Shown piece after piece: positions 4,709 to 63,995 of a stretch of DNA of 64,000 nt (positions are counted from its first letter, which is position 1; each line of letters starts with the position of its first letter). This DNA comes from Candidatus Pacearchaeota archaeon (GTDB lineage: Archaea > Nanobdellota > Nanobdellia > Pacearchaeales > JAPDKA01): contig JAWAFA010000001.1 of the NCBI GenBank assembly GCA_038890875.1, positions 258,617 to 322,616 on the forward strand, in the 5' to 3' direction. The position numbers were made by a program, and so were the translations under genes. Below the pieces are notes generated by a model that saw only the letters and a program-made list of their open reading frames with translations, had not been told where the DNA came from and searched no databases.

Positions 4709-4709
4709 T

Positions 4710-5102: not shown

Positions 5103-5185
5103 TTTAATTTTTTATTTTCATTTTAATTTTGTTTTCATTAATATAAAAGTTTTAAACTTAATAATCCTTTATAAATTTAATTAAT

Positions 5186-26756: not shown

Positions 26757-27650
26757 ATGGAGGGGGTGGAGAAAATGGAATTTGAAAAAATAATTTTGCA
26801 AAAACCAAAAAGAGAAAATTTACCTGAAATGCCAGAGTTAGTTAAACAATATTGTGATTTAAAAAGTTATAAGCCTGCTGGAAAGGTTTTTAGCATAGAA
26901 ATTAAACATAAGAGTAGGGATTCAAAAACAGACGGCATGGCTTATTTCAATGAGCTAGTAGTGAATAAAGAAAATAAAGTAGTCTATAGTAGTGGAATGA
27001 TGAAATATAGAGGAGCTTATAACTGGGAAATTGATAATCACGACACCCAGTTGTTTGATCCTTCAATTTTAGAAGAAAAAAGTAATGAAGTAGTATTTGG
27101 ATTAAGAACTGGTGCAGGAAACATAAAAATATACAGATTAAAGGGAAATGAACTAAAAGAACTTTACACCTTTGACATCGATGGTTATAGGAAAAAGAAG
27201 AAAAGAAATGAATTAATTAAAAAGATTCTTGAAGATCCAGATGAATGGGTGAAGTACATTGAAAATGAGCAAGGGCATCATTGGTATATTGATTCTTCGA
27301 GAATGCGTGATTTGAAAAATGAAAAAGAAAAGGGAAATGAATGGAGGGACGATTACCAAATTCTTGATGACGGAAATTTGATTATAGCACTAGCGAAACA
27401 TTACGATAGAGACTATGATCCTATCGTAGATTGTTATTATGTGTACTTTTGGAAAAAAAGGGTTGGTATGGCAAAATCAAAAACTTACTATACAGGACTT
27501 TGCCACCCTTGGGGAAAATTTTATATAATTGAGGTTAGATTTTTAGAACCAGCATCTTATGATAAAGATAAACAGATAGTTATAGCAAAAATAGGAAATA
27601 AGGGGCAAAACAAAGTAATAGAACACAAATTTAAGTTAGAAGAAAAATAA
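26757..27650 (+). CDS. Hypothetical cytoplasmic protein (cluster gene 1). The true start is probably the ATG at 26775, after a GGAGGGGGTGG SD.
   Basis: 297 aa with no signal peptide or TM and no recognisable motif. Shares a conserved upstream leader with the next gene. Confidence 0.45.
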   Translation: MEGVEKMEFEKIILQKPKRENLPEMPELVKQYCDLKSYKPAGKVFSIEIKHKSRDSKTDGMAYFNELVVNKENKVVYSSGMMKYRGAYNWEIDNHDTQLFDPSILEEKSNEVVFGLRTGAGNIKIYRLKGNELKELYTFDIDGYRKKKKRNELIKKILEDPDEWVKYIENEQGHHWYIDSSRMRDLKNEKEKGNEWRDDYQILDDGNLIIALAKHYDRDYDPIVDCYYVYFWKKRVGMAKSKTYYTGLCHPWGKFYIIEVRFLEPASYDKDKQIVIAKIGNKGQNKVIEHKFKLEEK

Positions 27651-27736
27651 GGAGTTAGAAAATTGAAAGAAGTATAATAACAAAAACAAAAGCCAATCGA
27701 GCACGACGCGATGAAGTAAATGGAGAGGTGAAGAAA

Positions 27737-28519
27737 ATGAAAAATTTCGAAAAGTATGTGGAAGAAGCGAAAGAAGGGAAGAAAATGATAATATATGTGT
27801 CTGACTCGTGTTATTCTGATATCCGTATTCCTCTTGAATATTATAAGTCTAAACTAGAAAGAATGATTTCACTTGATCAGTATACTGAAGATATTGCTAG
27901 TTTTCTATTGCTAATAGATAATGAAAGGACTTTGAGAGGTATTGTACAAGACTATTTATGCGAGTTTGGAAAAGATGAGTTTGGCTTAGTAGAAGCACTA
28001 AAGAAGTTAGTTCCAGAAAAAGATGAAAAATCATCTAAAGTTCTTTTGTATCATGGTCTTTGCAGTGAGTTTAGAAAAGGATTAAAAAAAGAAGAACTAA
28101 AAAAACTTGGAATAGAATATGCCGTAGATTTTCATCATTATCCAGACAATCCATTTGCATACGAATTAGAAGAAACTATAAAAAGTTTGGATTCGAAAAA
28201 ATATGATAACTTAATGAAAGTGATAAATGACACAAAGAAAAGAGAAGAAGAAATTTTGAAACAAGTAAATGAAAAGATTCCTATAAAGTATACAAGTGAT
28301 TTTATTAAAGTAGGAGAGTTTCTAAAAGAGTTAGATTTATCAAAGCAACATTTTTGTTTAAATTATATCATAGGAAAAATCACTGATACAGATTATATGA
28401 GAGGATTCATTTATCTTGGTGCTGGAGAATTAGATGCAGCTAAAAAAATGGCAGACATGACAAACTCTGCCTTTAATAAAGAATGGTTATTAAAAGAAAT
28501 CGAAAAACGAAAAAAGTGA
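27737..28519 (+). CDS. Hypothetical cytoplasmic protein (cluster gene 2).
   Basis: The ORF track uses the GTG at 27728. The ATG at 27737 lies 8 nt after a GGAGAGGTGA SD. No recognisable domain. Confidence 0.45.
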   Translation: MKNFEKYVEEAKEGKKMIIYVSDSCYSDIRIPLEYYKSKLERMISLDQYTEDIASFLLLIDNERTLRGIVQDYLCEFGKDEFGLVEALKKLVPEKDEKSSKVLLYHGLCSEFRKGLKKEELKKLGIEYAVDFHHYPDNPFAYELEETIKSLDSKKYDNLMKVINDTKKREEEILKQVNEKIPIKYTSDFIKVGEFLKELDLSKQHFCLNYIIGKITDTDYMRGFIYLGAGELDAAKKMADMTNSAFNKEWLLKEIEKRKK

Positions 28520-28540
28520 ACGAATGGGTGGTTGAAGAAA

Positions 28541-29209
28541 ATGACAAAACCACTGGAAATATTGGTTGTGGAAGATGGTGTTGAAAATTTAGAAAATTGT
28601 AAAAAAGCATATGAACCACTGATGAAAGAGGGGCTCATTATACCTTATTACGCCACTAATTACAAAGAAGCAGAGCCTTTAATTGATAAAGTGAATGCAG
28701 GAATTTTAGATCTTTATTTTCCAGCAGAAAATGGGGAAGAGATGATCAAAGAATTTGCTAGAAAATACGATAGAGGTAGTGGGTTTCCTAAAGAAGTAAA
28801 AGCTAATGATATGTATCCTATGGGCCTAATCATTGCTGATAAACTTGCTGAACAAGGAAAACCATCAATATTTGTAAGTCCAATTGCTAGTGGCCATGGA
28901 TCACATAACAATCCATTTTATCCATTGAGATATGCTATAGATAGTGAAAAAATACCTAAAGAAATAAAAATAGCATGGTCTGCTTGTGAGAATCCATACA
29001 GTTTTGAGGAATATGGCAGTCCTACATTTGTATCTTATATGTTAAGAGTAGATTCACAATGGTTTAGAGATTACATAGAAAAGATACCAGAAGTATGGCT
29101 TGCTTCTGTTAAAGCAATAGCCGCACTCTTAAAAAGAGAAGATATTTACAATAAAATAAAAGTTGATAAACTTGTAGAAAAAAATATAGAGGAATTTTAT
29201 AAAAAATAG
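28541..29209 (+). CDS. Hypothetical protein whose N-terminus looks like a response-regulator receiver domain (cluster gene 3).
   Basis: LEILVVEDGVENLENCKKAYEPLMKEGLII...AGILDLYFPAENGEEMIKEF was aligned by eye to the REC pattern (acidic pair, a phosphoacceptor-position Asp in ILDL, then a ...P..G.E helix). The C-terminal ~130 aa are unknown. The ORF track uses the TTG at 28532. Confidence 0.4.
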   Translation: MTKPLEILVVEDGVENLENCKKAYEPLMKEGLIIPYYATNYKEAEPLIDKVNAGILDLYFPAENGEEMIKEFARKYDRGSGFPKEVKANDMYPMGLIIADKLAEQGKPSIFVSPIASGHGSHNNPFYPLRYAIDSEKIPKEIKIAWSACENPYSFEEYGSPTFVSYMLRVDSQWFRDYIEKIPEVWLASVKAIAALLKREDIYNKIKVDKLVEKNIEEFYKK

Positions 29210-29511
29210 TAACTTATGGAGATAGAAAGAATCAAATATTTTGATAGCCGTCGGCCAATTTTTATAAAAATAAAAGTTTATTAGATAAATCAAAATTTTT
29301 GAATAATAAGAAAGTATTTTTTAAAAGTTTATTTAAAGATTTAAAAAAAAGATAAGCAAAAAAGCCAGGTAGTTGGATTTTTAGATAAATTTTATTTAAA
29401 AGATCAGTTAGATAGCCACATTTTTGACAGAAAAAAATATTAAAGTTTCAATAAGAATATACAAAAATATAAAAATTAATGAAATAAAAGCTTCGATAGT
29501 TGAGCTACTAA

Positions 29512-29823
29512 ATGACATCTTCCGACATGTTCAAAATTTATAATCAAAAAGATGAATGGCTGTGTGGTTTTCTTGTAGGAAAAAATATAATGCATGTTTA
29601 TTTATATCCAAAAAGAAATTGGAAGAGTAATTTTAAAAGTAATTTACTTTACGAATTTGGCACTGTATACAACCTTATTTTCGAACATTTAATTGCTGAA
29701 GGTTTAGCAGAAAGTATGGAAAAAAATTATTCTTTTCATAAAGCTCTATTCTTCGGAAATAGAATATCCTTTATGGAGTGGATACACACAGTAGAGGACA
29801 TATTAAAAGGGAAGAAAAAATAA
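29512..29823 (+). CDS. Hypothetical small protein inside an otherwise non-coding ~820-bp AT-rich gap.
   Basis: 103-aa ORF with no motif. Coding status is uncertain. Confidence 0.25.
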   Translation: MTSSDMFKIYNQKDEWLCGFLVGKNIMHVYLYPKRNWKSNFKSNLLYEFGTVYNLIFEHLIAEGLAESMEKNYSFHKALFFGNRISFMEWIHTVEDILKGKKK

Positions 29824-30033
29824 ACTGGAAAGAAATATTAAGAAAAAATCCTTTTAGCTTCAAAAATAAATTAAAGAATTGGTTCTATTAGAAACATAAA
29901 TTAGTAAACGTAAAACATGCCTCAAGTACATGCAGGTTTTTTAAGCTTTTGCTCACGTTCATCATCAACATTGAGTTAAAAGCAAAGAAATAAAAATATT
30001 AACAAGCATATATTAGAAGCAAAAAGAGGTCAA

Positions 30034-31344
30034 ATGCCAGACATATGGATTGGAAGAAGTGAAGAGGATAGAAAAAAATTTGGCGATAAGGGCTTGATTT
30101 ATATTGGAAAACTTTGGGTTAGGATGGAACATCTTGTCAATTTAAGTAATCTCGTCTTACTTGATCTTGCAAGAAGTCATATAATAATGGTTTGTGGAAA
30201 AAGAGGTAGTGGAAAGTCATATACGCTTGGAGTTATTGCTGAAGGTATAACAGATATGCCTGAAGAAGTAAAAAGTAACATAGCTCCTCTTATCTTTGAT
30301 ACAATGGGTATTTACTGGAGTATGGCCTATAGAAATGATAAAGAAATAGAACTTTTGCGAGAGTGGCAGCTTAAGCCAAAAGTATTACCTGTCAGAATAT
30401 TTGTACCATATGCTTATTACGACGAATTTGTAAAGCGTGGCATAGGCAAAATCTTACCATTCGCTTTAAAGGTTTCTGATGTTAGCCATGAGGACTGGCT
30501 TATAACTTTTGATTTGGGTTTCACTGATCCAGTAGGAATAGTTATCCAAAAAGCGATAATAAAGTTACGCGAGAAGAAGACTGACTATGACATTGATGAT
30601 ATAATCACTCTAATCAAAGCTGATGAAGAAAGTGAGAAGCAGCATAAGCTAGCTGCTATAAATATATTTGAAGCTGCTAAAGCTTGGGGAATTTTTGCAA
30701 CTAAAGAACAAAAAGCAACAACGTCGAGAGAATTACTAGAGGCAGGTGTAACAACTGTGCTTGATTTGAGTATGTACAGTAGTGTAGGGGCTTATAATGT
30801 TAGAGCTCTTGTTATTGGTCTTCTATGTAAAAAAATTTTCAATGAGCGCATGCTTGCAAGAAAACTTGAAGAAGTAGAAGCAGTAAGAAGAGGGCTTGAG
30901 TATCTTTATTTCAAAGAAAAACGAGAATTGCCACTTGTTTGGATTTTTATCGATGAGATGCATGAATTTTTGCCACGAGAAGGAAAAACAGCAGCAAGCG
31001 ATGCATTAATCCAATTGCTGCGAGAAGGGAGGCAGCCAGGCATAAGTCTTGTGTTTGCTACTCAACAACCAGGAAAACTTCATACAGATGCTATAACTCA
31101 AGCCGACATTATAATTAGCCATAGACTTACAGCAAAGCCTGATTTAGATGCATTAAGTGAAATAATGCAAAGTTACCTTGCCGAAGATATAATTGCTTAC
31201 ATGAATAATCTTCCTCGTTATAGAGGCTCCGCTCTTGTTCTTGATGATAATAGTGAGAGAATATATAGCATCCGTGTTAGACCACGCTTCACTTGGCATG
31301 GTGGAGAAGCACCAACTGCAGTAAAAGTTGAAAAACGAGAATAA
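30034..31344 (+). CDS. HerA/FtsK-superfamily P-loop ATPase (DUF87-like).
   Basis: Walker A VCGKRGSGKSYTLG. Walker B VWIFIDEMHEF. A HerA/VirB4-type ...LVFATQQPGKL...ADIIISHRLT segment. No TM. Confidence 0.65.
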   Translation: MPDIWIGRSEEDRKKFGDKGLIYIGKLWVRMEHLVNLSNLVLLDLARSHIIMVCGKRGSGKSYTLGVIAEGITDMPEEVKSNIAPLIFDTMGIYWSMAYRNDKEIELLREWQLKPKVLPVRIFVPYAYYDEFVKRGIGKILPFALKVSDVSHEDWLITFDLGFTDPVGIVIQKAIIKLREKKTDYDIDDIITLIKADEESEKQHKLAAINIFEAAKAWGIFATKEQKATTSRELLEAGVTTVLDLSMYSSVGAYNVRALVIGLLCKKIFNERMLARKLEEVEAVRRGLEYLYFKEKRELPLVWIFIDEMHEFLPREGKTAASDALIQLLREGRQPGISLVFATQQPGKLHTDAITQADIIISHRLTAKPDLDALSEIMQSYLAEDIIAYMNNLPRYRGSALVLDDNSERIYSIRVRPRFTWHGGEAPTAVKVEKRE

Positions 31345-31442: not shown

Positions 31443-32411
31443 ATGAAAAACCATCTTAAAAAAATAATCAATTTTTTGCTTGCCTCAAGTATTTTTTTTA
31501 CTTATACTGCCGCAGCCGTACCTAAATCAGTTGAGTCGATCAAACCTATCCCAAAAGAAATTAAGGACATCTCTATGTATCAGGAATGGCTTGATCGATA
31601 TGAATTGAATAATTATAATTATTCAAGTGAAAATTTTTATTCTTGTTTTCAGAGAATGGAAAAATATAGGAATATAATAGAAAAAGCAGCAAAAGAGTCA
31701 AGATTGCCTGTTTGCGAGTTAGAAGCTTTAATAGCGATTGAATCTTGCGGTTTGTTAAAAGCACATTCAAAAGCTGGAGCAAGTGGACCAGCACAATTAA
31801 TGTATGGAAAAGCTAAAGAATTTGGAATAAAAATAACTAGTACTGAAGATTGGAGATATAGTGTAGATTCGATTTTTCCAGCGGCTAAATATTTCGCAAA
31901 GGTGAAAAAAAATTATGGATTGGAGAATGCACTAATAGCTTATAATGCTGGTGAGAGTAAAGCTAACAACATTAATCATCTTGAAGAGTGGGAAGATAAG
32001 AGGGATTATATACCATATGAAACACAAAAGTATGTTCCAAGATTTATGAATGCGGCTGTCCAATGCCTTGAATATGAAGAAGAGAGAAAAAATCATGTAA
32101 AAATAGCTCAAAAAGGAGATACATTATGGAAAATAGCTAAAGAATGTAAAAGTAATGTAGAAAAAATAAAAAAAATTAATGGAATTTCCGGTAAAAAGAT
32201 ATTCTCTGGGCAAAAAATAGTGTGCAGTGAAGATTATTTTGACATATTTGCTAAAGCAACCTTTTATACTGTTAAAACAAATGATACTATGGCAAAGATA
32301 GCTAGAAAATATGGAATTTCACCAGAGCTGTTAAAATATCTAAATCCACAGATAAAAAAATTTTCCAACTTAACTCCAGGAATGAAAATAAGAATAATAA
32401 AAAGTGAATAA
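31443..32411 (+). CDS. Secreted lytic transglycosylase (SLT domain) with two C-terminal LysM domains.
   Basis: Signal peptide. SLT motif IAIESCGLLKAHSKAGASGPAQLM with a downstream AYNAG. LysM 1 is VKIAQKGDTLWKIAKECKSNVEKIKKINGI. LysM 2 is YTVKTNDTMAKIARKYGISPELLKYLNP. Confidence 0.75.
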   Translation: MKNHLKKIINFLLASSIFFTYTAAAVPKSVESIKPIPKEIKDISMYQEWLDRYELNNYNYSSENFYSCFQRMEKYRNIIEKAAKESRLPVCELEALIAIESCGLLKAHSKAGASGPAQLMYGKAKEFGIKITSTEDWRYSVDSIFPAAKYFAKVKKNYGLENALIAYNAGESKANNINHLEEWEDKRDYIPYETQKYVPRFMNAAVQCLEYEEERKNHVKIAQKGDTLWKIAKECKSNVEKIKKINGISGKKIFSGQKIVCSEDYFDIFAKATFYTVKTNDTMAKIARKYGISPELLKYLNPQIKKFSNLTPGMKIRIIKSE

Positions 32412-32461: not shown

Positions 32462-33880
32462 ATGCAAAAAAAATTAATTATTTTTCTTATTGCTTTAGCA
32501 ATTATTGCAATAGTAATTGCTTCAATTATTAAATTTTCCTCGCCTAATGTAATAAGTGAATCAAGCGGAAAAAGAATCAAAGTTGGATATATTATTTACG
32601 TCAATAATTCAGTTTATGAAAGTTCAGAATTAAGTTTTGAGGATAGTTTTTCCAAACAGCTTGGCCTGGTTGGTAATAAAGCTGATAGTTACTTTGATAA
32701 TGTCAAAGTTAGTGATGAGTTTAACATAAGCCTTAAAGCTGAGGAAGCTTATGGTAATTATAATGAGAGCTTGCGAAAGATTGTTAATCGAACAATGAGT
32801 GATAAAAGAATTATTGAATTGAACTTAGGAGGAGAAATCACTCAGGATCAATTTTATCAAGTTTTTAATCAACTACCAATCGTAAACCAAACATATTCAT
32901 CTACTCTCTTACCTTTCAAGATAAAAGTTACTAGAGTTGATAATAACAATGTTAACTTTGTCTTTGATGTTAAGATCAATGATCAAACAGCAAAAGATCA
33001 AAATGGATTTTGGTTAAAAGTAGTTAAGGTAGATGAAAAAAATAATTTAATGCAACTTAAACTTGAAGGTGAGCCAAAAAAAATTGCAACTGAAAAAGGT
33101 CTTATTGATATTTGGTTTGATGAAGAAAATATCTATTATAAACTTACACCGAAAATAGGAGATAGCATTGAATGGCATAATGAGTATGGTAAAGTTGCAA
33201 GTTACAATGAAACTCATATTATTTTCGATAACAACCATCCTCTTGCTGGCAAGGATATAGTAATAACTATCAGAGTACTTGATGTTTCGAGTGAAATTAT
33301 TAAAGCTTCATGTAAGGCAAATTCCGGTCCAACATTTGATGTTTTTATTATGAGCTATTGCCCATTCGGTATACAATTTGTTAAAGGCTTGCTTCCTGTT
33401 TGGAAAGCGCTTGAAAATGATGCCAATATCAATGTTAGATTTGTAAGTTATACGATGCATGGTCAAAAAGAAGCTAATGAAAATGCAAGAATGGTTTGTA
33501 TAAGGGAGGAACAATGCGAAAGCTATCGCGCATATCTTGAGTGTTTTGTGCAAAGTGGCGATTCTGAAAGTTGTATAAATAAACTTAATATAGATAAAAC
33601 CAAACTTGATGAGTGTATGGCAAAAAAAGCACAGAGTTATCTTGAATATGATGCCCAGCTTAATGAAAAGTATGGCGTGAAAGGAAGTCCGACGGTGGTG
33701 CTCAATGGAAAACAGATTGAAGTTTGGCCAAGAAGCCCAGCCAATATAGCAAGAATACTTTGTGAATCATTCACTTCAGAACCAAGTGCATGCTCACAGC
33801 GCTTTAGTGATGAAAATCCTGGCCCTGGCTTTGGCACTTCATCAACTTCATCAAACTTAGGGAGTTGTGGGGCAGCTTAA
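32462..33880 (+). CDS. Membrane-anchored extracellular protein with a C-terminal DsbA/thioredoxin-like domain (atypical CPFG active site).
   Basis: N-terminal TM. FDVFIMSYCPFGIQF (CxxC position reads C-P-F-G). A cis-Pro region GSPTVVLNGKQI typical of DsbA-like folds. Additional paired cysteines near the C-terminus. Confidence 0.45.
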   Translation: MQKKLIIFLIALAIIAIVIASIIKFSSPNVISESSGKRIKVGYIIYVNNSVYESSELSFEDSFSKQLGLVGNKADSYFDNVKVSDEFNISLKAEEAYGNYNESLRKIVNRTMSDKRIIELNLGGEITQDQFYQVFNQLPIVNQTYSSTLLPFKIKVTRVDNNNVNFVFDVKINDQTAKDQNGFWLKVVKVDEKNNLMQLKLEGEPKKIATEKGLIDIWFDEENIYYKLTPKIGDSIEWHNEYGKVASYNETHIIFDNNHPLAGKDIVITIRVLDVSSEIIKASCKANSGPTFDVFIMSYCPFGIQFVKGLLPVWKALENDANINVRFVSYTMHGQKEANENARMVCIREEQCESYRAYLECFVQSGDSESCINKLNIDKTKLDECMAKKAQSYLEYDAQLNEKYGVKGSPTVVLNGKQIEVWPRSPANIARILCESFTSEPSACSQRFSDENPGPGFGTSSTSSNLGSCGAA

Positions 33881-36815: not shown

Positions 36816-38060
36816 TTACATTTTCTTTACTATCCTTTCGACATCACTATCCATCCCCTTTTTTTTATAATATTCAATAACTTTCTGGTATAACTCTCTA
36901 GCTTTTTCGATCATGCCAGCATCGTTGGCCATATCAGCTATTTTTTCATAGTTTTCAATAACTTTCTTATACAACTCTTCAACCTTCTCTTCCATACCAT
37001 ATTCACTCGCTAATTTGAAGGCATTATCAAACATCCCCGCTTTTTCATAAATCTCGACAGCCTTTTCACCCATTTTTGCCTCAATTGCAATTCTTACAGC
37101 ATCATCAATCCTTCCTTTTTTCTCATAATCTTCAATAGCCTCCTTATACAACTCTTTTGCTTTTTCTTCATTTCCCTTCTCTTTAGCTAATCTAGCAGCA
37201 ACATCTTTAAATCCTGCTTCTTCATAATCCTTAATTGCTCTCTCTATCATATTAGCTTCAAGAGCTATCTTTGCAGCATAAACAAACATTCCTTTTTTCT
37301 CATAATCTTCAATAGCCTCCTTATACAACTCTTTTGCTTTTTCTTCATTTCCCTTCTCTTTAGCTAATCTAGCAGCAACATCTTTAAATCCTGCTTCTTC
37401 ATAATCCTTAATTGCTCTCTCTATCATATTAGCTTCAAGAGCTATCTTTGCAGCATAAACAAACATTCCTTTTTTCTCATAATCTTCAATAGCTTTAAGA
37501 TAAAATTGCTGAGCTATACCTTTAATACCTGCCTCAAGAGCTATCTTTGCAGCCTCATAAAACCTCTTTTTGTCCTTATACCCCTCAATAACTTTCTTAT
37601 ATAACTCTTCAGCCTTATCCTTCATACCATGCTCACTAGCAACTTTAGCAGCAATATAAGTTAACCCTGCTTTTTCATAAATCTCGACAGCCTTTTCACC
37701 CATTTTTGCCTCAATTGCAATTCTTACAGCATCATCAATCCTTCCTTTTTTCTCATAATCTTCAATAGCCTTTAGATACAACTCTTTTGCTTTTTCTTTC
37801 ATCTCAATTTTACTTGCTATCTTTGCACTATCATAAAACTTCCCTTTACTTTCATAATACTTAATAACTACTTGATAGAGTTTTTTAGCTATTTCTTTCA
37901 TCCCTAAATTAAGAGCAATAGTAGCGGCTTCTTCGCAATCTTTAATAATTTCCGCACGTAACTTTTCGGCTCTCTCAGTCATCCCTATTGAAAGCGCAAA
38001 TTTAACTGATTTTTCACGTTCTTTAATAGATTTAAGCATTTGCTCTAGGTCGGCTTTCAT
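36816..38060 (-). CDS. Alpha-helical tandem-repeat protein (~38-aa Sel1/TPR-like units).
   Basis: Repeats of A.KIA.EA.M.E.A...YEKAG...AA.LA.E.G.EEKA.ELYK.AIEDYEKKG, with two 59-aa blocks that are identical at the protein level. Confidence 0.55.
   Translation of the reverse strand: MKADLEQMLKSIKEREKSVKFALSIGMTERAEKLRAEIIKDCEEAATIALNLGMKEIAKKLYQVVIKYYESKGKFYDSAKIASKIEMKEKAKELYLKAIEDYEKKGRIDDAVRIAIEAKMGEKAVEIYEKAGLTYIAAKVASEHGMKDKAEELYKKVIEGYKDKKRFYEAAKIALEAGIKGIAQQFYLKAIEDYEKKGMFVYAAKIALEANMIERAIKDYEEAGFKDVAARLAKEKGNEEKAKELYKEAIEDYEKKGMFVYAAKIALEANMIERAIKDYEEAGFKDVAARLAKEKGNEEKAKELYKEAIEDYEKKGRIDDAVRIAIEAKMGEKAVEIYEKAGMFDNAFKLASEYGMEEKVEELYKKVIENYEKIADMANDAGMIEKARELYQKVIEYYKKKGMDSDVERIVKKM
37140..37495. 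repeat. Near-perfect tandem duplication (~177-bp unit x2) within the helical-repeat gene.
   Basis: The sequence ...ttcaatagcctccttatacaactcttttgctttttcttcatttcccttctctttagctaatctagcagcaacatctttaaatcctgc... recurs identically starting ~177 bp later. Confidence 0.8.
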
Positions 38061-38179
38061 AACTAAATTAAAAATAAATTATTTATAAATCTTTTTGCTA
38101 CTCTAAATTAGTAACTTAATCAAAATCAATAAAAACAATCGAGCATAAAAATTTAAATGTAAACTCTAAGTATATAATA

Positions 38180-38506
38180 ATGAAAAATAAAAAGGCGATT
38201 TCATTCCTTTTTCAGATAATCATAGAAATCTTAATAATAACTATTGTTTTTGCTTTATTAGCTTTTTTTGTTGTTTCTTCCCAAGGACTTGATACAAAAA
38301 AAGTAGCATTATCAGAGCTTAGCTTTTTTGTTTCAATGTTTGACGACGTCGAAGTTAATATAAATTCAAGTGAATTTAATGTTAGCGAGCTTAGCTATGA
38401 AACCAACTCTTTTGTTCTATCAATTTCTCCGATTATAAAATATAGAAGCCCTGTCTATGTAAAGAAAGAGATAGATTTAATTGATGGCAATCTAAGAATA
38501 AAATGA
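38180..38506 (+). CDS. Pilin-like protein with a class III signal peptide.
   Basis: N-terminus MKNKKA/ISFLFQIIIEILIITIVFALLAFFVV. First gene of a four-gene overlapping operon. Confidence 0.45.
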   Translation: MKNKKAISFLFQIIIEILIITIVFALLAFFVVSSQGLDTKKVALSELSFFVSMFDDVEVNINSSEFNVSELSYETNSFVLSISPIIKYRSPVYVKKEIDLIDGNLRIK

Positions 38507-38901
38507 AAGAAAAAAAAGCACAACTTCTTGGAAGCGAATACTTGTTATGGATTTATAGATTCTTTTTAATCTCTCTTGTTGCTTTAGGTACCGTTATCAT
38601 AGTTGCTAAATATAATAGCATTGAGCTTGATAAAAAACCTCTAATAGCAAGCCAGCTGCTCAATGCAGTTCTTGAATGTAAAGAAGAAAATAAATTAAAC
38701 TGTATTTTTTATAATCAAATTTATGATATTTATGTTTCTTACGATAAAAAAGAAATTGGTAAAAAAGATTTAATTATTTTGTGCGAGGCTAAAGAATCTG
38801 GAGTTGAAATACCAAATATAGATTTATTCTGTAAGAACTATAAAATAATTGTTGCTAATAAAATAAAAAATTTAAAGATAGCAATAGCAAGTGAAAAATG
38901 A
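38503..38901 (+). CDS. Pilin-like protein with a class III signal peptide.
   Basis: N-terminus MKEKKAQ/LLGSEYLLWIYRFFLISLVALGTVII. ATGA overlap with both neighbours. Confidence 0.45.
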   Translation: MKEKKAQLLGSEYLLWIYRFFLISLVALGTVIIVAKYNSIELDKKPLIASQLLNAVLECKEENKLNCIFYNQIYDIYVSYDKKEIGKKDLIILCEAKESGVEIPNIDLFCKNYKIIVANKIKNLKIAIASEK

Positions 38902-39383
38902 AAACAGCAAAAAAAGCCAAAAGAGCACAAACAAGCGTCTTTGGTTTAATTTTAGCAACTTTTATTCTTATCTTTTTAATAATCATTTACCTTCTTTTTT
39001 CAGTATTCTATAAAGGAATAAATGAGAAAAAAAATTTAAAAATAACTGAACAGCTTGATGAAAAAATTTTATCTTACTATTTACTTGATGCAATGTTCAC
39101 TGAACTAGATGCAAGCACAATGCAAAAAATTTATGATCAGAGTAAGATGAAATATAATTTGTCTAACTTTGCCGAGCTATTTTATGCATACTATTCATCT
39201 AAAGATGATGAAAAGCTTATAGAAAATATAATTAATAAAAAGCTTGATGAGTTGGAACTTTCTGATTATACTTTACAATTTGAAATTATTAAAATCGATA
39301 AAATTGATAAGAGAGAAGGAGCAAGAGTTTTTCTTCCTTTTTCAAATTCAAGCGTAATCGAAATTAATCTAATAAAAAAATAA
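38898..39383 (+). CDS. Pilin-like protein with a class III signal peptide.
   Basis: N-terminus MKTAKKAKRAQ/TSVFGLILATFILIFLIIIYLLF. Confidence 0.5.
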   Translation: MKTAKKAKRAQTSVFGLILATFILIFLIIIYLLFSVFYKGINEKKNLKITEQLDEKILSYYLLDAMFTELDASTMQKIYDQSKMKYNLSNFAELFYAYYSSKDDEKLIENIINKKLDELELSDYTLQFEIIKIDKIDKREGARVFLPFSNSSVIEINLIKK

Positions 39384-39390
39384 ACTTAAA

Positions 39391-40134
39391 ATGAAAAGCA
39401 AAAACAAGGAAGGAGGCAAAAGAGGATTTGCACTTTTTCCTTGGTTAATTATAATAGTTGCCCTGGTAATATTTAATATTGCTTCTTTTATTCTTCTTGA
39501 AAAAACAAAGGAAAAGATAAAAAGTATAGAAAATCTTGATGAAGTTATTGATTACTCTTGGTTTATCAAAAATTATGAGAGATTTTTAAATTTATCTTAT
39601 GAACTAGCTTATGCTCAAGCTTTGAACGATCTTTCTCATATGCCCAGTTTTGATTGTGAAATTATCCAAATTAGTGGCGAAACTTTTTTTTCTCTTGAGA
39701 AGTGTAAGTTAGATCAAGATTTATTTCTCAACAATTTTAAACAGAGATTTAATGAGCACATTAATTCATTTTCTACTCTTACCAATGCTAAAAGTGAATG
39801 TAATTTTGATAATAATAAGGTAGATTGTCAATTAACTTTTAATAAAACATTTGAGCTAAATTTTTTAAATCTGACAACAAAAAAAGTTGTTAAATTTGAA
39901 AGAGCGATTGATCTTAGCTATATAAACAACCTAGAAGAAGCGAGAAAAGAAGTTCTTGAAAAAATAAAAGCAATAAAAATAGCCGAAACAGAGCAATCTA
40001 TACCTAAAAAATATTCCATTAAAATTGAATTAATTTCAGGAAGGCAGAAGATTACATTTTTAACAAAAAAATTTTTCTTGGTTGAAAATGACAAAGTTTT
40101 ATATAAGGAAATTCCTTTAATTTTTATTTATTAA
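39391..40134 (+). CDS. Pilin-like protein with a class III signal peptide (largest subunit, possibly a tip or minor pilin).
   Basis: N-terminus MKSKNKEGGKRG/FALFPWLIIIVALVIFNIASFILL. This is a textbook [KR]-G-[F]-hydrophobic prepilin-peptidase site. Confidence 0.55.
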   Translation: MKSKNKEGGKRGFALFPWLIIIVALVIFNIASFILLEKTKEKIKSIENLDEVIDYSWFIKNYERFLNLSYELAYAQALNDLSHMPSFDCEIIQISGETFFSLEKCKLDQDLFLNNFKQRFNEHINSFSTLTNAKSECNFDNNKVDCQLTFNKTFELNFLNLTTKKVVKFERAIDLSYINNLEEARKEVLEKIKAIKIAETEQSIPKKYSIKIELISGRQKITFLTKKFFLVENDKVLYKEIPLIFIY

Positions 40135-40135
40135 A

Positions 40136-41077
40136 ATGATAAATGCAAAAATTGATGAGATTATTGAGAAAATAGCAAAGATTGCAAAGACTGATAAAGA
40201 GGAAGTTAAACGAAGAATCGAAGCTAAGAAGGCAGCACTTAGTGGGCTTATAAGCTACGAGGGAGCAGCCCAGATTGTTGCTGCCGAGCTCGGAATAAAG
40301 TTTGATAGTATAAAACTAAACATTGCTGATTTGCTTCCTGGAATGAGGCATATCAATGTGATTGGTAAAATTATTGAGCTTTACAAAATTCAAAAATTTG
40401 TTAGAGGTGGTAAAGAGCAAAAACTTGCTTCCTTTCTTTTTGCTGATGCTACAGATTGCATTCGTGTTGTTCTCTGGGATACGAAACATATTGCTTTGAT
40501 CGAAGAAGGAAAATTAAAAGAAGGAGATACTGTAGAGATTAGTAAAGCATATGTTAGAGGGGATGTTAACAGCAAAGAGTTACATTTAACTGGCATTTCC
40601 GATATTTCTTTATCAAGTATCAAGCTAGAACAAACAATTAACAAAGAAACAAGACCATTTCGTTTTATAAATCAATTAACAACAAACTCAAGGGTTAAGA
40701 TAAAAGCAAATATTGTTCATGCTTTCAAACCAATGATTTATGATTTTTGCCCTATTTGTAACAAAAAAGCAGGAAATTGTGAGCATGAAAGCTTTGAAAA
40801 ACGTATTGTTTTTGCCTTTATTGTTGATGATGGTACTAGTAATATTAGATGCATTGCATTTACACCAATAGCAATGAAAATTTTAGGTTTAGCAAACAAA
40901 ATCGAAGATCTCGAAGTTGAAGCAAGGCTTGTTGATTTACTTGGCGAGGAATTTTGGCTTACTGGTCGCGTGCGAAAAAATACTTTTCGTGATGCTCTCG
41001 AACTAGTAGTTGAAGATGCCGAGCAAGTTGATGTTAAAGAATTAATTGAAAAGCTGCAGAGTTCGTCTCTAAAATGA
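40136..41077 (+). CDS. rpa: RPA-like single-stranded-DNA-binding protein (OB folds plus a C4-type zinc ribbon).
   Basis: OB-fold-like segments (…HINVIGKIIELYKIQKF…ASFLFADATDCIRVVLWD…GDTVEISKAYVRG). Zinc motif CPICNKKAGNCEHE. Confidence 0.5.
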   Translation: MINAKIDEIIEKIAKIAKTDKEEVKRRIEAKKAALSGLISYEGAAQIVAAELGIKFDSIKLNIADLLPGMRHINVIGKIIELYKIQKFVRGGKEQKLASFLFADATDCIRVVLWDTKHIALIEEGKLKEGDTVEISKAYVRGDVNSKELHLTGISDISLSSIKLEQTINKETRPFRFINQLTTNSRVKIKANIVHAFKPMIYDFCPICNKKAGNCEHESFEKRIVFAFIVDDGTSNIRCIAFTPIAMKILGLANKIEDLEVEARLVDLLGEEFWLTGRVRKNTFRDALELVVEDAEQVDVKELIEKLQSSSLK

Positions 41078-41379
41078 AAATTGCTTTAGTTGGAACTCAT
41101 GGAGTAGGAAAAACAACTGCAGCCCATGAAATTGTTGCTTTACTGAAAAAGAATTCTCTTGATGCAGGTTACCTAGAAGAAGTAGCAAGGAAATGTCCTT
41201 TACCGATAAACGAAGAAACAACTAAAGAAAGTCAAAAATGGATTTTTTATACACATTTAGCTTATGAGATAGAGCTTAAAACAAGATATTCTATTCTAGT
41301 ATGTATAGATCATTACTTGACATTTATGCCTATTATTTCAGAAAATTTGGCAGCAATAAAGCTATGGAATCTGTTTTAA
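41074..41379 (+). CDS. P-loop NTPase, THEP1-like (N-terminal part), possibly frameshifted into the next ORF.
   Basis: Walker A MKIALVGTHGVGKTT at the extreme N-terminus, as in archaeal ~175-aa NTPases. Only 101 aa before the stop. Confidence 0.5.
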   Translation: MKIALVGTHGVGKTTAAHEIVALLKKNSLDAGYLEEVARKCPLPINEETTKESQKWIFYTHLAYEIELKTRYSILVCIDHYLTFMPIISENLAAIKLWNLF

Positions 41380-41600
41380 GAGAAAATCTTCCTTCTTATG
41401 ATTCTCTCTTCTATATACCATTAAAAAAATTCAAAAGAGAACCACAAAAAGATAAAGCAAGATCGACTAATAAAAAATTTCAGGAAGAAATTGATATAAT
41501 AATAAGAAATTTTTTTGAAAAGTTTAAGGTTGACTATTCAGAATATAAAAATGCAGAAGATGCAGTAGAGAAAATAAAAGCTACTCTTCTTTGTCACTAA
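41301..41600 (+). CDS. Hypothetical ORF overlapping the NTPase ORF in a different frame. Possible C-terminal part of the same frameshifted gene.
   Basis: 99-aa ORF overlaps 41301-41379 with the upstream gene. The combined length (~175 aa) matches a single small NTPase. Confidence 0.3.
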
Positions 41601-42549
41601 CTCCATACTGAGTTATAAAAAAAACTGTTTCATTATCGGGAAGATTTGGGCTATCTATAAGCTTAACTATTCTACTATTTGATTTGCCGCGCCTAAAATA
41701 AAGCCTGTAAGTTGAGGCATGCCCAACTATATGGCCACCTATAGCTCTTGTTGGATCACCAAACATCATTGCTGGATCAGCCATAACTTGGTTTGTAACA
41801 TAAACAGCAAGATTATATTGTTCAGCTAGTCGCATTAAAATATGTAAATATTTGTTTAATTTTTGCTGTCTATCAGCGAGAGTACCTCGTCCTGTATATT
41901 CAGCTCTAAAATGACTTGTCAATGAATCTACAATGACTAATTTAATTGGCTCACCTTCTCTCAACATTTCTTGAACTTTATCAAGCAACAATATTTGATG
42001 GTCACTATTAAAAGCCCGAGCAACATAAATATTATTAAGAGTTTTTTCAGGATCAAGGCCTTTAGCTAGAGCCATTTGTTTAATCCGCTCTGGTCTAAAT
42101 GTACCTTCAGTATCTATATAAATTGCCTTTCCATTTGCTCCTCCTTCTTCGAGTGACATTTGCACATTGACAGCAAGTTGATGGGCGACTTGTGTTTTGC
42201 CAGAACCAAAAGCACCAAAAGCTTCAGTTATTGCTTTAGTCTCAACACCTCCTCCTAATAAATTATCAAAGTTCTTGCTATTTGTTGTTATTTTTATTAT
42301 CTCTTTTCTTCTTCTCTCATAAGCAACACCAGTATCGAAATCAAGTTTTAACAACTTTCTTGCTGCAGCAATAATCTTTCGCGCCACTCCTTCAGAAACA
42401 TCAATAGCAGTTCCGAGTTCTGCTGGCGGCATTACTGCAATTGCCATCAGATCAGTAAAACCAGCATCTTCGAGCTTTTTAGCAATAGTGCTTCCAACTC
42501 CAGGCAAATCTTTTATTTCATACTCCTTTTCTTTTGCCTTTTCAGCCAT
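41581..42549 (-). CDS. radA: DNA repair and recombination protein RadA.
   Basis: N-terminal HhH ([17 protein letters not shown]). Walker [10 protein letters not shown]. RecA-fold core. 322 aa. Confidence 0.9.
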
Positions 42550-42612: not shown

Positions 42613-43638
42613 TCATTTATGCCTCTTTTTCTTTCTATTTTTGGTTTTTTTATATCTGCAATAGCCTTTTTTTCCCTCATTTTTTACTAGCATCATTGCT
42701 TCATCGGCATGTTTTAAGAGCTCTAGCATAGAATTGGCATCATAGCCATAGGTCGCACAACCTACACTAACTCCTATTTTGCCTCTGAACTCTCGCACTT
42801 CTTTCGCAAATTCAATTGTTGCATAATTACTGACCTCTTTGACAATTCTTCGTGCAATTTTATCAACTTCTTTTGGAGAAGCTTCTGGGATGATAATTAC
42901 AAACTCATCCCCTCTGTAACGCCTTCCTAAAGTATCTATAGAACGACAATATTTTCTTAAACCTTCAGCAATTAACTTTAATGCTAGATCGCCTCTTAGA
43001 TGATTATAGTTATCATTTATAGCTTTAAAATTATCAACATCTATGAAAAGAAGTGAGACATATTTTTTCTTTTTGCTTCTTTTTGCTCGCTCTACTTCTT
43101 TTTTTAATTGTTCGATTATATATCTTTCATTAAACAAGCCTGTTAATGAGTCAATCATCACCTCACGCTTCAATGATTCGATTTCTTTTGTTTGTCTTGC
43201 TCCAAGAAGATGTACTAATTTCTCAATTCTTTTCATTTCTTTTAGTACTTCATAGGCTTCTACCCTACTTTTCTTAAAAAAATAAAACTTTAATTTTGAT
43301 ATCCCATCAGTAATTTTTGGAGCAACATAACTTAACATTATATCTGCAAATTGGTTTTTCCTTGCCCTTTCTTCTTCATGATTATTTGAATCTATTTCTG
43401 ACATTAGGGTATACTGCCTTTTCATTATTGTTCTAAGATTGCCTATAAGCTCTCTAAGCATTATTCTAGCATTTATATAATCTTCATAAGTAAATTTTTT
43501 AGAGTAGTGTGCATACTGCATATTCAAACTATCACTCTCTTCTTGGATGCCCTTTAATTCCTTCAAAAATCTTTCTACATAAATTCTTACTTTTTTGTCT
43601 GCACTTTTTAACATCTCTTCAAAAACCTTATTTTTCAT
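42613..43638 (-). CDS. GGDEF-domain protein (diguanylate-cyclase fold) with a degenerate active-site motif and an N-terminal coiled-coil region.
   Basis: DSLTGLFNERYI..., FIDVDNFKAINDNYNHLRGDLAL, and RYRGDEFVII where RYGGEEF is expected (the first Gly is replaced by Arg). No TM. Confidence 0.65.
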   Translation of the reverse strand: MKNKVFEEMLKSADKKVRIYVERFLKELKGIQEESDSLNMQYAHYSKKFTYEDYINARIMLRELIGNLRTIMKRQYTLMSEIDSNNHEEERARKNQFADIMLSYVAPKITDGISKLKFYFFKKSRVEAYEVLKEMKRIEKLVHLLGARQTKEIESLKREVMIDSLTGLFNERYIIEQLKKEVERAKRSKKKKYVSLLFIDVDNFKAINDNYNHLRGDLALKLIAEGLRKYCRSIDTLGRRYRGDEFVIIIPEASPKEVDKIARRIVKEVSNYATIEFAKEVREFRGKIGVSVGCATYGYDANSMLELLKHADEAMMLVKNEGKKGYCRYKKTKNRKKKRHK

Positions 43639-43921: not shown

Positions 43922-44407
43922 TTAAAACTCTGAGGAGTTTTCATAGCACAACAAGCCCAACAAGCCTTTTGTGCCTATAGCAATAAAATTAACGATAAAT
44001 ACAATAAGCATGCTTAGTGTTAATAAATCAACTATGAAGCAATATCTACATATCGCCTTTATTACAAAAAACTGCAAAAATAAAAGATAGAGCGAGAATA
44101 ATGACATAGCGACTAGGAGAAAAAATATGGTTTTATTTTTAACATTGCTTGGATTTTTTATTTGGGCAGCACTTAATAAGACTAAAATTAAAAATGCAAG
44201 CATCCCTAAAACGCTTAAAGGTAGTCCTGCTATATCAGAGAAAGCGCTTGCATCAACAATTGCACAACCTCCCCCAATAAAACAAGAATCACTGGGCTTA
44301 ATTTTATTAATCTCTATATAGCCAGAAATAACTAGACTTATTATTGAAACAATTAATATGTATACTAGTGCAATTTTTTTTCTTTTTTTTGGTTCCGAGT
44401 ATTTCAT
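43922..44407 (-). CDS. Vitamin K epoxide reductase (VKOR)-family membrane thiol oxidoreductase.
   Basis: Polytopic membrane protein. A loop Cys pair (SDSCFIGGGCAIV) comes first, followed by an intramembrane CxxC (AICRYCFIV). This order is diagnostic of VKOR rather than DsbB. Confidence 0.55.
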   Translation of the reverse strand: MKYSEPKKRKKIALVYILIVSIISLVISGYIEINKIKPSDSCFIGGGCAIVDASAFSDIAGLPLSVLGMLAFLILVLLSAAQIKNPSNVKNKTIFFLLVAMSLFSLYLLFLQFFVIKAICRYCFIVDLLTLSMLIVFIVNFIAIGTKGLLGLLCYENSSEF

Positions 44408-63125: not shown

Positions 63126-63995
63126 ATGTTTGAATTTTTGATAAATCCAAAGAAAGCTGAAAAGAAGCCATGGGAAATGTTTTTTATCGGCTTGCTTTAT
63201 AGCTTAATCGCTCTTCTTTTAGTCGATTTAGTTTTTATAAAAAATAATGTTTTCAAGAACTATGCCAGTATGATGATCATTTTGTTTGCTGTTATGCTTT
63301 GTATACCTTTTGTTTTTTACCTTTTCGCTTACGAAGAGCGTAAGGATCTTGTTTTGAAAAAAGAGAGAAAAATTCTGAAAGAGCATGGTAGAGCCCTTCT
63401 TGCATTAACTTTTCTGTTTTTAGGCATGCTTGTTGGTTTTTCACTTTCAGCACTTCTCTTGCCAACAGAGTATACTAAAATAAATTTTGAAAGTCAGATA
63501 CATACTTATTGTAATATAAATATGCCTTATGATATGAAAACATGCTTTGATTATTTGCCTGAAGGAAAAATTAGTAAGCCAAGTCCAACAATAACATTTA
63601 GTGCCGCTATGAACAGATTCTTCGGCATATTTATAAATAACATTTATGTTTTGCTTTTTACTATCATCTTTAGCTTTATTTTTGGTGCAGGTGCAATTTT
63701 TATTTTGACATGGAATGCAAGCGTTATTGCCATAGCCATAAGTAGCCTGGCAAAAGCAAGAAATTTCGGTTTAGCATTTACTCACTATATGCTTCATGGC
63801 ATACCAGAAATAATGGCTTATTTTGTCGCCGGTCTTGCAGGAGGAATAATAAGCATGGCAGTAATAAGACATGATTATGAAAGTAATGATTTTTGGATAA
63901 TTTTACAAGATAGTGTAGATTTAATCATAATTTCTGTTCTTATTTTAATTCTTGCAGCATTCATAGAAGTTTTCATTAGTCCATTCTTGCTTTAA
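63126..63995 (+). CDS. Polytopic integral membrane protein of unknown function.
   Basis: 289 aa with six or more hydrophobic helices. No catalytic motif recognised. Confidence 0.4.
   Translation: MFEFLINPKKAEKKPWEMFFIGLLYSLIALLLVDLVFIKNNVFKNYASMMIILFAVMLCIPFVFYLFAYEERKDLVLKKERKILKEHGRALLALTFLFLGMLVGFSLSALLLPTEYTKINFESQIHTYCNINMPYDMKTCFDYLPEGKISKPSPTITFSAAMNRFFGIFINNIYVLLFTIIFSFIFGAGAIFILTWNASVIAIAISSLAKARNFGLAFTHYMLHGIPEIMAYFVAGLAGGIISMAVIRHDYESNDFWIILQDSVDLIIISVLILILAAFIEVFISPFLL

What the first reader, a model, noticed from the sequence alone, without database searches (positions are those of the whole stretch)
38180..40134. Operon B: a second four-gene pilin-like set with textbook prepilin cleavage motifs.
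The N-termini are KKA/ISFLF, KKAQ/LLGSEY, KRAQ/TSVFGL and KRG/FALFPW, each followed by long hydrophobic helices. All four genes overlap by ATGA. Two distinct pilin operons in 64 kb indicate a strong investment in pili, possibly for attachment to host cells. The last gene is larger (247 aa) and could be a tip adhesin.
Basis: seen in the sequence. Interest (0 to 1): 0.55.

Follow-up and report, generated by a model that had tools for sequence, protein, structure and literature searches.

The report
Divergent pilin-like gene cluster, DPANN archaeon
Four small, tightly packed genes in a tiny symbiotic-type archaeon (Pacearchaeota) encode unannotated proteins with the leader-plus-hydrophobic-helix signature of type IV pilins; relatives carry the same genes inside complete pilus-assembly loci, so they are most likely accessory pilus subunits, which is an expected kind of system rather than a new one.

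Summary
The four ORFs exist as described: 38180-38506, 38503-38901, 38898-39383 and 39391-40134, here B1-B4. Each has a short basic leader ending in [KR][GA], followed directly by one N-terminal hydrophobic helix. Two details in the finding are wrong. Only B1/B2 and B2/B3 overlap by ATGA; B3/B4 are 7 nt apart. By analogy with characterised archaeal pilins, cleavage would fall before the Gln, not after it.

The window is from a Candidatus Pacearchaeota (DPANN) MAG. No curated pilin HMM matches any of the four. The pilin-like reading rests on comparative evidence:
- All four have orthologues in the same order in related Pacearchaeota and Woesearchaeota.
- In those genomes the B1-B3 orthologues sit among up to about ten similar genes, between a T2SSE/PilB-type ATPase with a polytopic membrane protein and a Peptidase_A24 prepilin peptidase.
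- The only feature shared by the four families is the leader K-N-K-[KR]-[GA].
- B3 has an invariant Gln at +1.
- B2 and B4 keep conserved cysteines.

The window itself holds no ATPase, platform protein, peptidase or obvious major pilin.

A confident B4 model (pLDDT 89) shows a 46-residue N-terminal helix plus an alpha/beta head. The head has no significant match in the PDB, so the adhesin idea is untested.

Verdict: probable minor-pilin module of a DPANN type IV pilus, a new member of a known kind.

The parts
38152..38158 (+). Candidate archaeal TATA-like element (TTTAAAT), about 25 nt upstream of the B1 ATG. It would give a leaderless or near-leaderless transcript.
   Evidence: Read directly from the sequence. 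This is inference only: the intergenic region is very AT-rich, so the match has little statistical weight.
38180..38506 (+). B1: 108-aa pilin-like protein. Leader MKNKKA, predicted cut before ISFLFQ.
   Evidence: ORF. Single N-terminal TM at 13-31. Nine orthologues in the same position in relatives. The Woesearchaeota-type orthologues have Glu at +5, and the window type has Gln in the aligned column. No Pfam or NCBIfam hit.
38503..38901 (+). B2: 132-aa pilin-like protein. Leader MKEKKA, predicted cut before QLLGSEY. It is a short, divergent member of a large uncharacterised DPANN family.
   Evidence: ORF with ATGA overlap to B1. The family has 924 proteins at E<=0.01, all 'hypothetical' and none with a Pfam domain. 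Four invariant Cys and one invariant Gly. G or A at -1 in every family member examined. The AF2 model is confident only for the N-terminal helix 6-39.
38898..39383 (+). B3: 161-aa pilin-like protein. Leader MKTAKKAKRA, predicted cut before QTSVFGL.
   Evidence: ORF with ATGA overlap to B2. Gln at +1 is invariant in 9 orthologues, preceded by [KRN][AG]. Single TM at 14-32.
39391..40134 (+). B4: 247-aa pilin-like protein. Leader MKSKNKEGGKRG, predicted cut before FALFPW. It is the largest and most narrowly distributed subunit.
   Evidence: ORF 7 nt after B3. Identical to NCBI QW244_01675, Candidatus Pacearchaeota. The family has only 31 representatives at 50% clustering. Two invariant Cys. AF2 pLDDT 89.2, pTM 0.77; helix 15-60, then an alpha/beta head. 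No significant PDB match.
40136..41077 (+). Replication protein A (OB-fold ssDNA-binding protein). It starts 1 nt after the B4 stop, so it is probably co-transcribed. It is not a pilus component but is a conserved neighbour.
   Evidence: NCBIfam replication factor A, E=1e-26; Pfam OB-fold. The same B1-B4 then RPA order is seen in L004, L005, L007 and L018.

Best explanation
B1-B4 are four unrelated families of divergent type IV pilin-like proteins with archaeal class III signal peptides, in a Pacearchaeota (DPANN) genome.

Proposed mechanism:
1. Each precursor is inserted into the membrane by its N-terminal hydrophobic helix.
2. An A24-family prepilin peptidase, encoded elsewhere in this genome, removes the short basic leader after the conserved K-N-K-[KR]-[GA] motif.
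3. The mature proteins are assembled through their N-terminal helices into a type IV pilus by a PilB/FlaI-type ATPase and a polytopic platform protein.

The four genes are a fixed-order, translationally coupled set that is conserved next to, but distinct from, the candidate major pilins of related loci. They therefore most likely form a minor-pilin module, either a priming or tip complex or decorating subunits, rather than the pilus shaft. B4 is the large, fast-evolving, disulfide-bonded member.

Shown: the ORFs, the motif, its conservation, and synteny with pilus machinery in relatives.
Inferred: cleavage, assembly, minor-pilin status, and any role in host attachment.
For: 1. Leader and H-domain. 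All four have a charged residue at -2 and G/A at -1, directly before a single N-terminal hydrophobic segment. These are the stated requirements for archaeal prepilin processing (PMC4371748).

2. Motif conservation.
- Across 77 of 80 proteins from these clusters the consensus is K(-5) N(-4) K(-3) K/R(-2) G/A(-1), with a median leader of 8 aa.
- Profile-profile comparison of the families aligns only this motif.
- G/A at -1 holds in every family member examined, 118 for B2 and 29 for B4.
- Gln at +1 is invariant in B3, as in the M. maripaludis pilins processed by the prepilin peptidase EppA.
- Glu at +5 is present in the Woesearchaeota-type B1 orthologues.

3. Synteny.
- L014 and L017 read: T2SSE ATPase, a 719-725-aa polytopic protein, about 9 small leader-bearing genes including B1, B2 and B3 orthologues in that order, Peptidase_A24, then RPA and RadA.
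- L006, L010, L012 and L016 carry the same pilin run next to Peptidase_A24 (PF01478, E=7.8e-9 for L006).
- L018 has the window-type order B1-B4, RPA, RadA, with a T2SSE ATPase 1.7 kb past RadA and six more leader-bearing ORFs upstream.

4. Extracellular hallmarks.
- Invariant Cys pairs in B2 and B4.
- Even Cys counts of 0, 4, 0 and 4 in B1-B4.
- N-glycosylation sequon density of 1.08 per 100 aa, against 0.30 in 12 cytosolic proteins of the window.
- VKOR and a DsbA-like gene are nearby.

5. The B4 model has a 46-residue N-terminal helix followed by a compact alpha/beta head, a lollipop architecture.

6. Literature. DPANN 'dark matter' proteins with signal peptides next to FlaI/TadC were already proposed to be diverse pilins (PMC6393860). 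Sets of 3-5 non-major class III proteins in archaeal T4P loci are read as minor pilins (PMC4858521).
Against: - No curated pilin or class III signal HMM matches any of the four, or any of 80 cluster proteins. The one exception is a Flp1_like hit on a single 46-aa ORF in L016.
- The B2 model is poor beyond the N-terminal helix. B1 and B3 were not modelled.
- The 64-kb window has no ATPase, platform protein, prepilin peptidase or clear major pilin (and the Pfam scans).
- None of the four window proteins has Glu at +5.
- About 21% of B2-family members lack a charged residue at -2.
- Cleavage and assembly were not observed. Minor-pilin status is argued by analogy only.
Confidence: 0.65

Rival explanations
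1. The same pilin-like proteins build a short pseudopilus or a DNA-uptake/exchange pilus, analogous to ComG or T2SS pseudopili or to Sulfolobus Ups pili, rather than a host-attachment pilus. The conserved adjacency to RPA and RadA would then reflect a functional link to ssDNA handling.
For: B4 and RPA are 1 nt apart, so they are probably co-transcribed. The neighbourhood of pilin cluster, optional A24-HIT-EF1beta segment, RPA and RadA is kept across loci whose RPA is only about 40% identical. No obvious major pilin accompanies B1-B4 in the window.
Against: In L014, L016 and L017 the pilin cluster and RPA are separated by unrelated genes on the opposite strand, so the linkage is a neighbourhood and not an operon. 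L016 lacks RPA there. No DNA-binding or ComEC-like component was seen. The anchor loci were chosen through RPA, which biases the count.
Confidence: 0.15
2. The four are ordinary single-pass (type II) membrane proteins with uncleaved signal anchors and extracytoplasmic domains. They happen to neighbour pilus genes in relatives but are not pilins.
For: No pilin HMM hit. No pilin fold hit for B4. No peptidase in the window. Basic residues before a TM helix are expected under the positive-inside rule.
Against: The positive-inside rule does not explain a near-invariant G/A at the last leader position, the shared K-N-K-[KR]-[GA] motif across four unrelated families, or the invariant Gln at +1 in B3. 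It also does not explain the repeated embedding between the T2SSE ATPase and Peptidase_A24.
Confidence: 0.08
3. One or more of B1-B4 is the major shaft pilin of this organism's pilus, not an accessory subunit.
For: No other candidate major pilin was found in the window. Archaeal major pilins can be encoded apart from the machinery (PMC4371748).
Against: Related loci carry separate small Cys-rich candidates (KRGQG|LSTN..., 123-151 aa; KRG|VEMN..., 123-124 aa) in addition to the B1-B4 orthologues. The fixed four-gene order and translational coupling suggest a stoichiometric complex. The B4 family is too narrowly distributed to be a core shaft subunit.
Confidence: 0.1

Closest known systems
Archaeal type IV pilin-like proteins with class III signal peptides (substrates of the prepilin peptidases PibD, FlaK and EppA), e.g. 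the Methanococcus maripaludis Epd minor pilins EpdA-D
   Same: A short basic leader, G/A at -1, a charged residue at -2, and an H-domain directly after the cut. B2 and B3 have Gln at +1, like the Epd sites RA|QI and KG|QV. Several non-major pilins are encoded together, and the relatives' loci contain an A24 peptidase, a PilB-type ATPase and a polytopic platform protein.
   Different: There is no detectable sequence similarity to any described pilin family or HMM. The leader has its own K-N-K-[KR]-[GA] consensus. The head domains are unrelated to anything in the PDB. The peptidases in relatives are 270-285 aa, and their type (PibD-like or EppA-like) was not determined.
Bacterial core minor-pilin sets (T2SS GspH-I-J-K; T4aP FimU-PilV-PilW-PilX) that prime pilus assembly and cap the tip
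   Same: Four contiguous, tightly coupled pilin-like genes of increasing size. The last is the largest and lacks Glu5. They are encoded separately from the major pilin.
DPANN 'dark matter' pilin loci described by Makarova, Wolf and Koonin 2019 (PMC6393860, Fig. 2A) and the archaeal T4P census of Makarova, Koonin and Albers 2016 (PMC4858521)
   Same: Unannotated small proteins with signal peptides that cluster with FlaI/TadC-type genes in DPANN genomes and are interpreted as diverse pilins.
   Different: Those papers do not define the B1-B4 ortholog groups, as far as the passages read here show.

Membership tests
Archaeal type IV pilin-like proteins (class III signal peptide) | G/A/S at -1 and a charged residue at -2, in a short N-terminal leader | tested here: met
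   B1 has K-A, B2 K-A, B3 R-A and B4 R-G. The feature is conserved in orthologues. Criteria are taken from PMC4371748.
Archaeal type IV pilin-like proteins (class III signal peptide) | The hydrophobic H-domain starts directly after the processing site and is the only TM segment | tested here: met
   One hydrophobic segment per protein, at residues 13-31, 17-35, 14-32 and 18-36. AF2 helices are 6-39 for B2 and 15-60 for B4.
Archaeal type IV pilin-like proteins (class III signal peptide) | Processing by an A24-family prepilin peptidase | not testable with these tools
   Only genomic association is available. Peptidase_A24 lies next to the orthologous clusters in L006, L008, L010, L012, L014, L016 and L017. 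None is in the window.
Archaeal type IV pilin-like proteins (class III signal peptide) | Genomic association with a PilB/FlaI-type ATPase and a TadC/FlaJ-type platform protein | tested here: inconclusive
   Met in relatives. T2SSE is present in L014, L017 and L018, followed by a 719-740-aa polytopic protein that has no Pfam match. Not met inside the 64-kb window. The rest of the 486-kb contig could not be read.
Archaeal type IV pilin-like proteins (class III signal peptide) | Match to a curated pilin, archaellin or class III signal model in Pfam or NCBIfam | tested here: not met
   No such family at E<=1 for B1-B4. None among 80 cluster proteins except Flp1_like on one 46-aa ORF of L016.
Archaeal type IV pilin-like proteins (class III signal peptide) | Pilin architecture: a long N-terminal helix carrying a globular, beta-rich head | tested here: inconclusive
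   The B4 model (pLDDT 89) has helix 15-60 plus an alpha/beta head with 8 strands. There is no significant match to solved pilins. The B2 head was not modelled confidently. B1 and B3 were not modelled.
EppA-type euryarchaeal pilins (Gln at +1) | Conserved Gln at +1 of the mature protein | tested here: met
   Applies to B2 and B3 only: KKA|Q and KRA|Q. Gln is invariant in 9 B3 orthologues. B1 (Ile) and B4 (Phe) do not have it.
EppA-type euryarchaeal pilins (Gln at +1) | A dedicated EppA-type peptidase in the genome | not tested
   The A24 peptidases of relatives were not classified. None is available from this genome.
Bacterial-type T4 pilins | Glu or Asp at +5 of the mature protein | tested here: not met
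   None of the four window proteins has it. B1 has Gln at +6 and B2 has Glu at +6. Woesearchaeota-type B1 orthologues do have Glu5. The feature is not required in archaea.
Minor-pilin tip/priming complex (GspHIJK-like) | Sequence or fold homology to GspH/I/J/K or PilV/W/X/FimU | tested here: not met

The most novel reading that the evidence does not exclude
B1-B2-B3, plus a clade-specific fourth subunit, form a conserved archaeal counterpart of the bacterial four-minor-pilin priming/tip complex. It would be specific to Pacearchaeota and Woesearchaeota and built from four protein families with no known relatives. B4, a fast-evolving disulfide-bonded head with a fold absent from the PDB, would be the host-recognition tip subunit. 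A further possibility is that the conserved linkage to RPA and RadA reflects pilus-mediated DNA uptake in these genome-reduced symbionts.
Probability: 0.2. Interest if true: 0.6.

Novelty: new member of a known kind. Interest (0 to 1): 0.35.

Why it matters
DPANN archaea depend on contact with host cells, and pili are the main candidates for making that contact. Their pilins, however, escape standard annotation.

This analysis adds four things:
- It assigns four 'hypothetical' families to the pilus system. One of them has at least 924 members across Pacearchaeota, Woesearchaeota and Nanoarchaeota.
- It gives a usable leader consensus, K-N-K-[KR]-[GA], for finding more of these proteins.
- It identifies a fixed-order B1-B2-B3 core module.
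- It singles out B4 as a variable head of unknown fold. B4 would be the first protein to test for host specificity.

The result refines annotation. It does not reveal a new kind of machine.

Tried and rejected
- Pfam and NCBIfam on B1-B4 and neighbours gave nothing for the four.
- Pfam on operon A gave nothing.
- Word-indexed homology search with B4 alone returned only B4 itself. With a 4-sequence profile it returned only 4 proteins.
- BLASTP of all eight pilin-like proteins against each other showed only N-terminal similarity.
- AF2 on window B2 with 118 homologues gave a poor model (pLDDT 53.8), usable only for the N-terminal helix. The window protein is a short, divergent member.
- The afdb50 library was unavailable.
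- hmmsearch of the B1, B2, B3 and B4 profiles against PDB sequences gave nothing significant. The best hit for B4 was the Geobacter geopilin N-terminal domain at E=0.12.
- tblastn of the relatives' A24 peptidase, T2SSE ATPase, platform protein and candidate major pilins against the window found none of them.
- BLASTP of operon A proteins against all fetched loci found no orthologues. Operon A is therefore not the missing half of the relatives' long pilin run.
- An attempt to walk upstream of operon A through exact-protein look-ups gave no new upstream sequence.
- The 6-TM protein at 63126-63995 was considered as a possible prepilin peptidase and rejected. It is a SpoIIM-family protein.
Full report
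**Observation.** The four + strand ORFs are real and lie at the stated coordinates:
- B1, 38180-38506, 108 aa
- B2, 38503-38901, 132 aa
- B3, 38898-39383, 161 aa
- B4, 39391-40134, 247 aa

Their N-termini read MKNKKA-ISFLFQIII, MKEKKA-QLLGSEYLLW, MKTAKKAKRA-QTSVFGLIL and MKSKNKEGGKRG-FALFPWLII. Each has exactly one hydrophobic segment, directly after this leader.

Two details of the finding do not hold. ATGA overlaps exist only at B1/B2 (38503-38506) and B2/B3 (38898-38901). B3 stops at 39383 and B4 starts at 39391, a 7-nt spacer. B4 is followed after a single nucleotide by the next gene at 40136. In characterised archaeal pilins the cut lies between G/A and Gln (RA|QI, KG|QV; PMC4371748).

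**Organism and surroundings.**
- B4 is identical to a hypothetical protein of a Candidatus Pacearchaeota MAG, on a 486-kb contig.
- The downstream gene is replication protein A, followed by RadA on the other strand.
- Pfam scans of essentially all larger ORFs of the window found no T2SSE ATPase, no TadC/FlaJ-like protein and no A24 peptidase.
- tblastn with those proteins from relatives was also negative.
- A second pilin-like set ('operon A', 4169-7184) exists. It is interrupted by one gene on the opposite strand and preceded by two very large Cys-rich surface proteins.
- Apart from their N-termini, the eight proteins are unrelated to each other.

**Direct family tests fail.** B1-B4 hit no Pfam or NCBIfam model. 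Of 80 proteins from these clusters in this and related genomes, none hits a pilin, archaellin or class III signal model. The one exception is a Flp1_like match on a 46-aa ORF of one relative. Profiles of the four families find nothing significant among PDB sequences.

**Comparative evidence.** I used the adjacent RPA as an anchor and fetched ten related loci.
- Four genomes (L004, L005, L007, and later L018) have orthologues of all four genes, in the same order, immediately upstream of RPA.
- In Woesearchaeota-type loci (L006, L008, L010, L012) a run of similar leader-bearing small genes is followed by a 270-278-aa polytopic protein. L006 and L010 have clear B1, B2 and B3 orthologues, L012 is a partial run, and L008 has only one such ORF. 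The L006 polytopic protein matches Peptidase_A24 (E=7.8e-9) and carries the two Asp motifs.
- A profile of B2 orthologues retrieved 924 proteins (E<=0.01). All are hypothetical, none has a Pfam domain, and those named by their sources are from Pacearchaeota, Nanoarchaeota or an unclassified archaeon.
- The contexts of four of these were read. L014 and L017 show: T2SSE ATPase, a 719-725-aa protein with about 8-9 hydrophobic segments, about nine small leader-bearing genes including B1, B2 and B3 orthologues in that order, Peptidase_A24, then HIT, EF-1beta, RPA and RadA.
- L016 shows the same pilin run with Peptidase_A24.
- L018 shows the window-type order B1-B4, RPA, RadA. It has a T2SSE ATPase 1.7 kb past RadA, and a 740-aa polytopic protein plus six more leader-bearing ORFs upstream.

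The window cluster is therefore the RPA-proximal end of a type IV pilus locus that is intact in relatives and dispersed in this genome.

**The leader.**
- In 77 of 80 cluster proteins the residues before the hydrophobic domain follow K(-5) N(-4) K(-3) K/R(-2) G/A(-1). The median leader length is 8 residues.
- Profile-profile comparison of B4 with B2, and of B1 with B3, aligns only this motif.
- G or A at -1 holds in every B2-family and B4-family member examined. In about a fifth of B2-family members the -2 residue is H, T or L rather than K or R.
- B3 orthologues have an invariant Gln at +1.
- Woesearchaeota-type B1 orthologues have Glu at +5. The window type has Gln in the aligned column.
- These are the features reported to be required for archaeal prepilin processing: G/A/S at -1, a charged residue at -2, and an H-domain after the cut.
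- A positive-inside signal anchor would not need them.

**Extracellular hallmarks.**
- B2 has four invariant cysteines and B4 has two.
- Cys counts in the eight window proteins are all even.
- N-glycosylation sequons are about 3.5 times denser in B1-B4 than in twelve cytosolic proteins of the window, although the numbers are small.
- VKOR and a weak DsbA-like gene lie nearby.

**Structure.**
- AF2 on window B2 was confident only for helix 6-39.
- B4 was modelled with 31 homologues found by an exhaustive profile search. The model is confident, with pLDDT 89.2 and pTM 0.77.
- It has helix 15-60, helix 62-83, a hairpin, and then two helix-plus-three-strand units. This is a lollipop shape compatible with a pilin.
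Its refutation criterion of 'no pilin-fold prediction' is neither met nor cleared.
- The B4 family is narrow (31 representatives, against at least 924 proteins for B2). In Woesearchaeota-type loci its position is taken by an unrelated 99-116-aa protein. This fits a rapidly changing exposed subunit but does not show it.

**Most likely mechanism.** Precursors insert through the H-domain. An A24 peptidase removes the K-N-K-[KR]-[GA] leader. The mature subunits are incorporated through their N-terminal helices into a filament built by a PilB-type ATPase and platform protein encoded elsewhere.

Three observations point to a stoichiometric accessory (minor-pilin) module, and by analogy to a priming or tip complex:
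- the fixed order of the genes;
- their translational coupling;
- the presence of separate small Cys-rich candidate major pilins in relatives.

Only the motif, its conservation and the synteny are shown. Processing, assembly, position in the filament and host attachment are inferred.

**Rivals.** I considered three alternatives:
- a pseudopilus or DNA-uptake role, suggested by the conserved RPA/RadA neighbourhood and the 1-nt B4-RPA spacing;
- uncleaved signal anchors;
- a major-pilin role.

They are weighed in their own section of this report.

**Comparison with what is known.** This is the kind of locus that Makarova and colleagues described in general terms: DPANN dark-matter proteins with signal peptides next to FlaI/TadC, read as diverse pilins (PMC6393860). 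Sets of non-major class III proteins in archaeal T4P loci are read as minor pilins (PMC4858521). It is a new member of a known kind. What is added here is the definition of four ortholog groups, their shared leader, their order, and a confident model of one head domain with no solved relative.

**Scores.** Interest is 0.35. Confidence in the pilin-like, minor-pilin explanation is 0.65.

Noticed in passing
window 4169-7184 (with 8-1945 and 1935-4172): 'Operon A' is four more leader-bearing pilin-like ORFs (KKA|FELSF, IKA|QLPAF, KQA|QIQFQE, KKA|QQEIF). They are interrupted by a lipoprotein-like gene on the opposite strand (4710-5102). They are preceded by two very large Cys-rich secreted proteins, the second with a C-terminal TM anchor. 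None has a Pfam hit, and none has an orthologue in the fetched loci.
   Followed up: partly
window 42613-43638 (-): A GGDEF-domain protein (PF00990, diguanylate-cyclase type) is encoded next to RadA in this archaeon. An orthologue sits in the same position in L004. From my own knowledge, c-di-GMP signalling is essentially undescribed in archaea.
   Followed up: no
window 17530-18645 (-) and 31443-32411 (+): Two secreted SLT lytic-transglycosylase proteins, the second with two LysM domains. These are murein-degrading enzymes in an archaeon and may be aimed at bacterial cell walls.
   Followed up: no
L018:7147-8412 and L007:1114-2361: Among the 80 cluster proteins scanned, two match the Pfam 3D domain (best E=2.3e-7), a MltA/RlpA-like cell-wall-cleaving fold. 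The output does not name them. I suspect the two 415-421-aa pilin-like proteins with a KKG| leader in the relatives' pilin runs. If so, a hydrolase could be carried on a pilin.
   Followed up: no
window 43922-44407 (-) and 32462-33880 (+): VKOR (E=1e-21) and a weak DsbA-like domain. This is extracytoplasmic disulfide-forming machinery, which fits the conserved Cys pairs in the pilin-like proteins.
   Followed up: no
window 40136-42549; L004, L005, L007, L014, L017, L018: A neighbourhood of pilin cluster, RPA and RadA is conserved across Pacearchaeota and Woesearchaeota whose RPA is about 40% identical. In the window B4 and RPA are 1 nt apart. In L014 and L017 RadA carries an intein (Intein_splicing, LAGLIDADG).
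   Followed up: partly
window 41074-41379 and 41301-41600 (+): A P-loop NTPase appears to be split into two overlapping ORFs (101 and 99 aa). This is a possible frameshift, pseudogene or assembly error. Gene callers on the Logan contigs also split it.
   Followed up: no
window 36816-38060 (-): A 414-aa TPR/SNAP-like helical-repeat protein directly upstream and divergent from B1. It contains an exact internal duplication of about 60 residues (AIEDYEKKGMFVYAAKIALEANMIERAIKDYEEAGFKDVAARLAKEKGNEEKAKELYKE appears twice).
   Followed up: no
window 26757-31344 (+): A HerA/FtsK-like ATPase (30034-31344) is preceded by four ORFs with no Pfam match. This may be a mobile-element, defence or secretion module.
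   Followed up: no
L014:11987-12545: A MazE/PemK toxin-antitoxin pair is inserted between the pilin run and the A24 peptidase in one relative.
   Followed up: no
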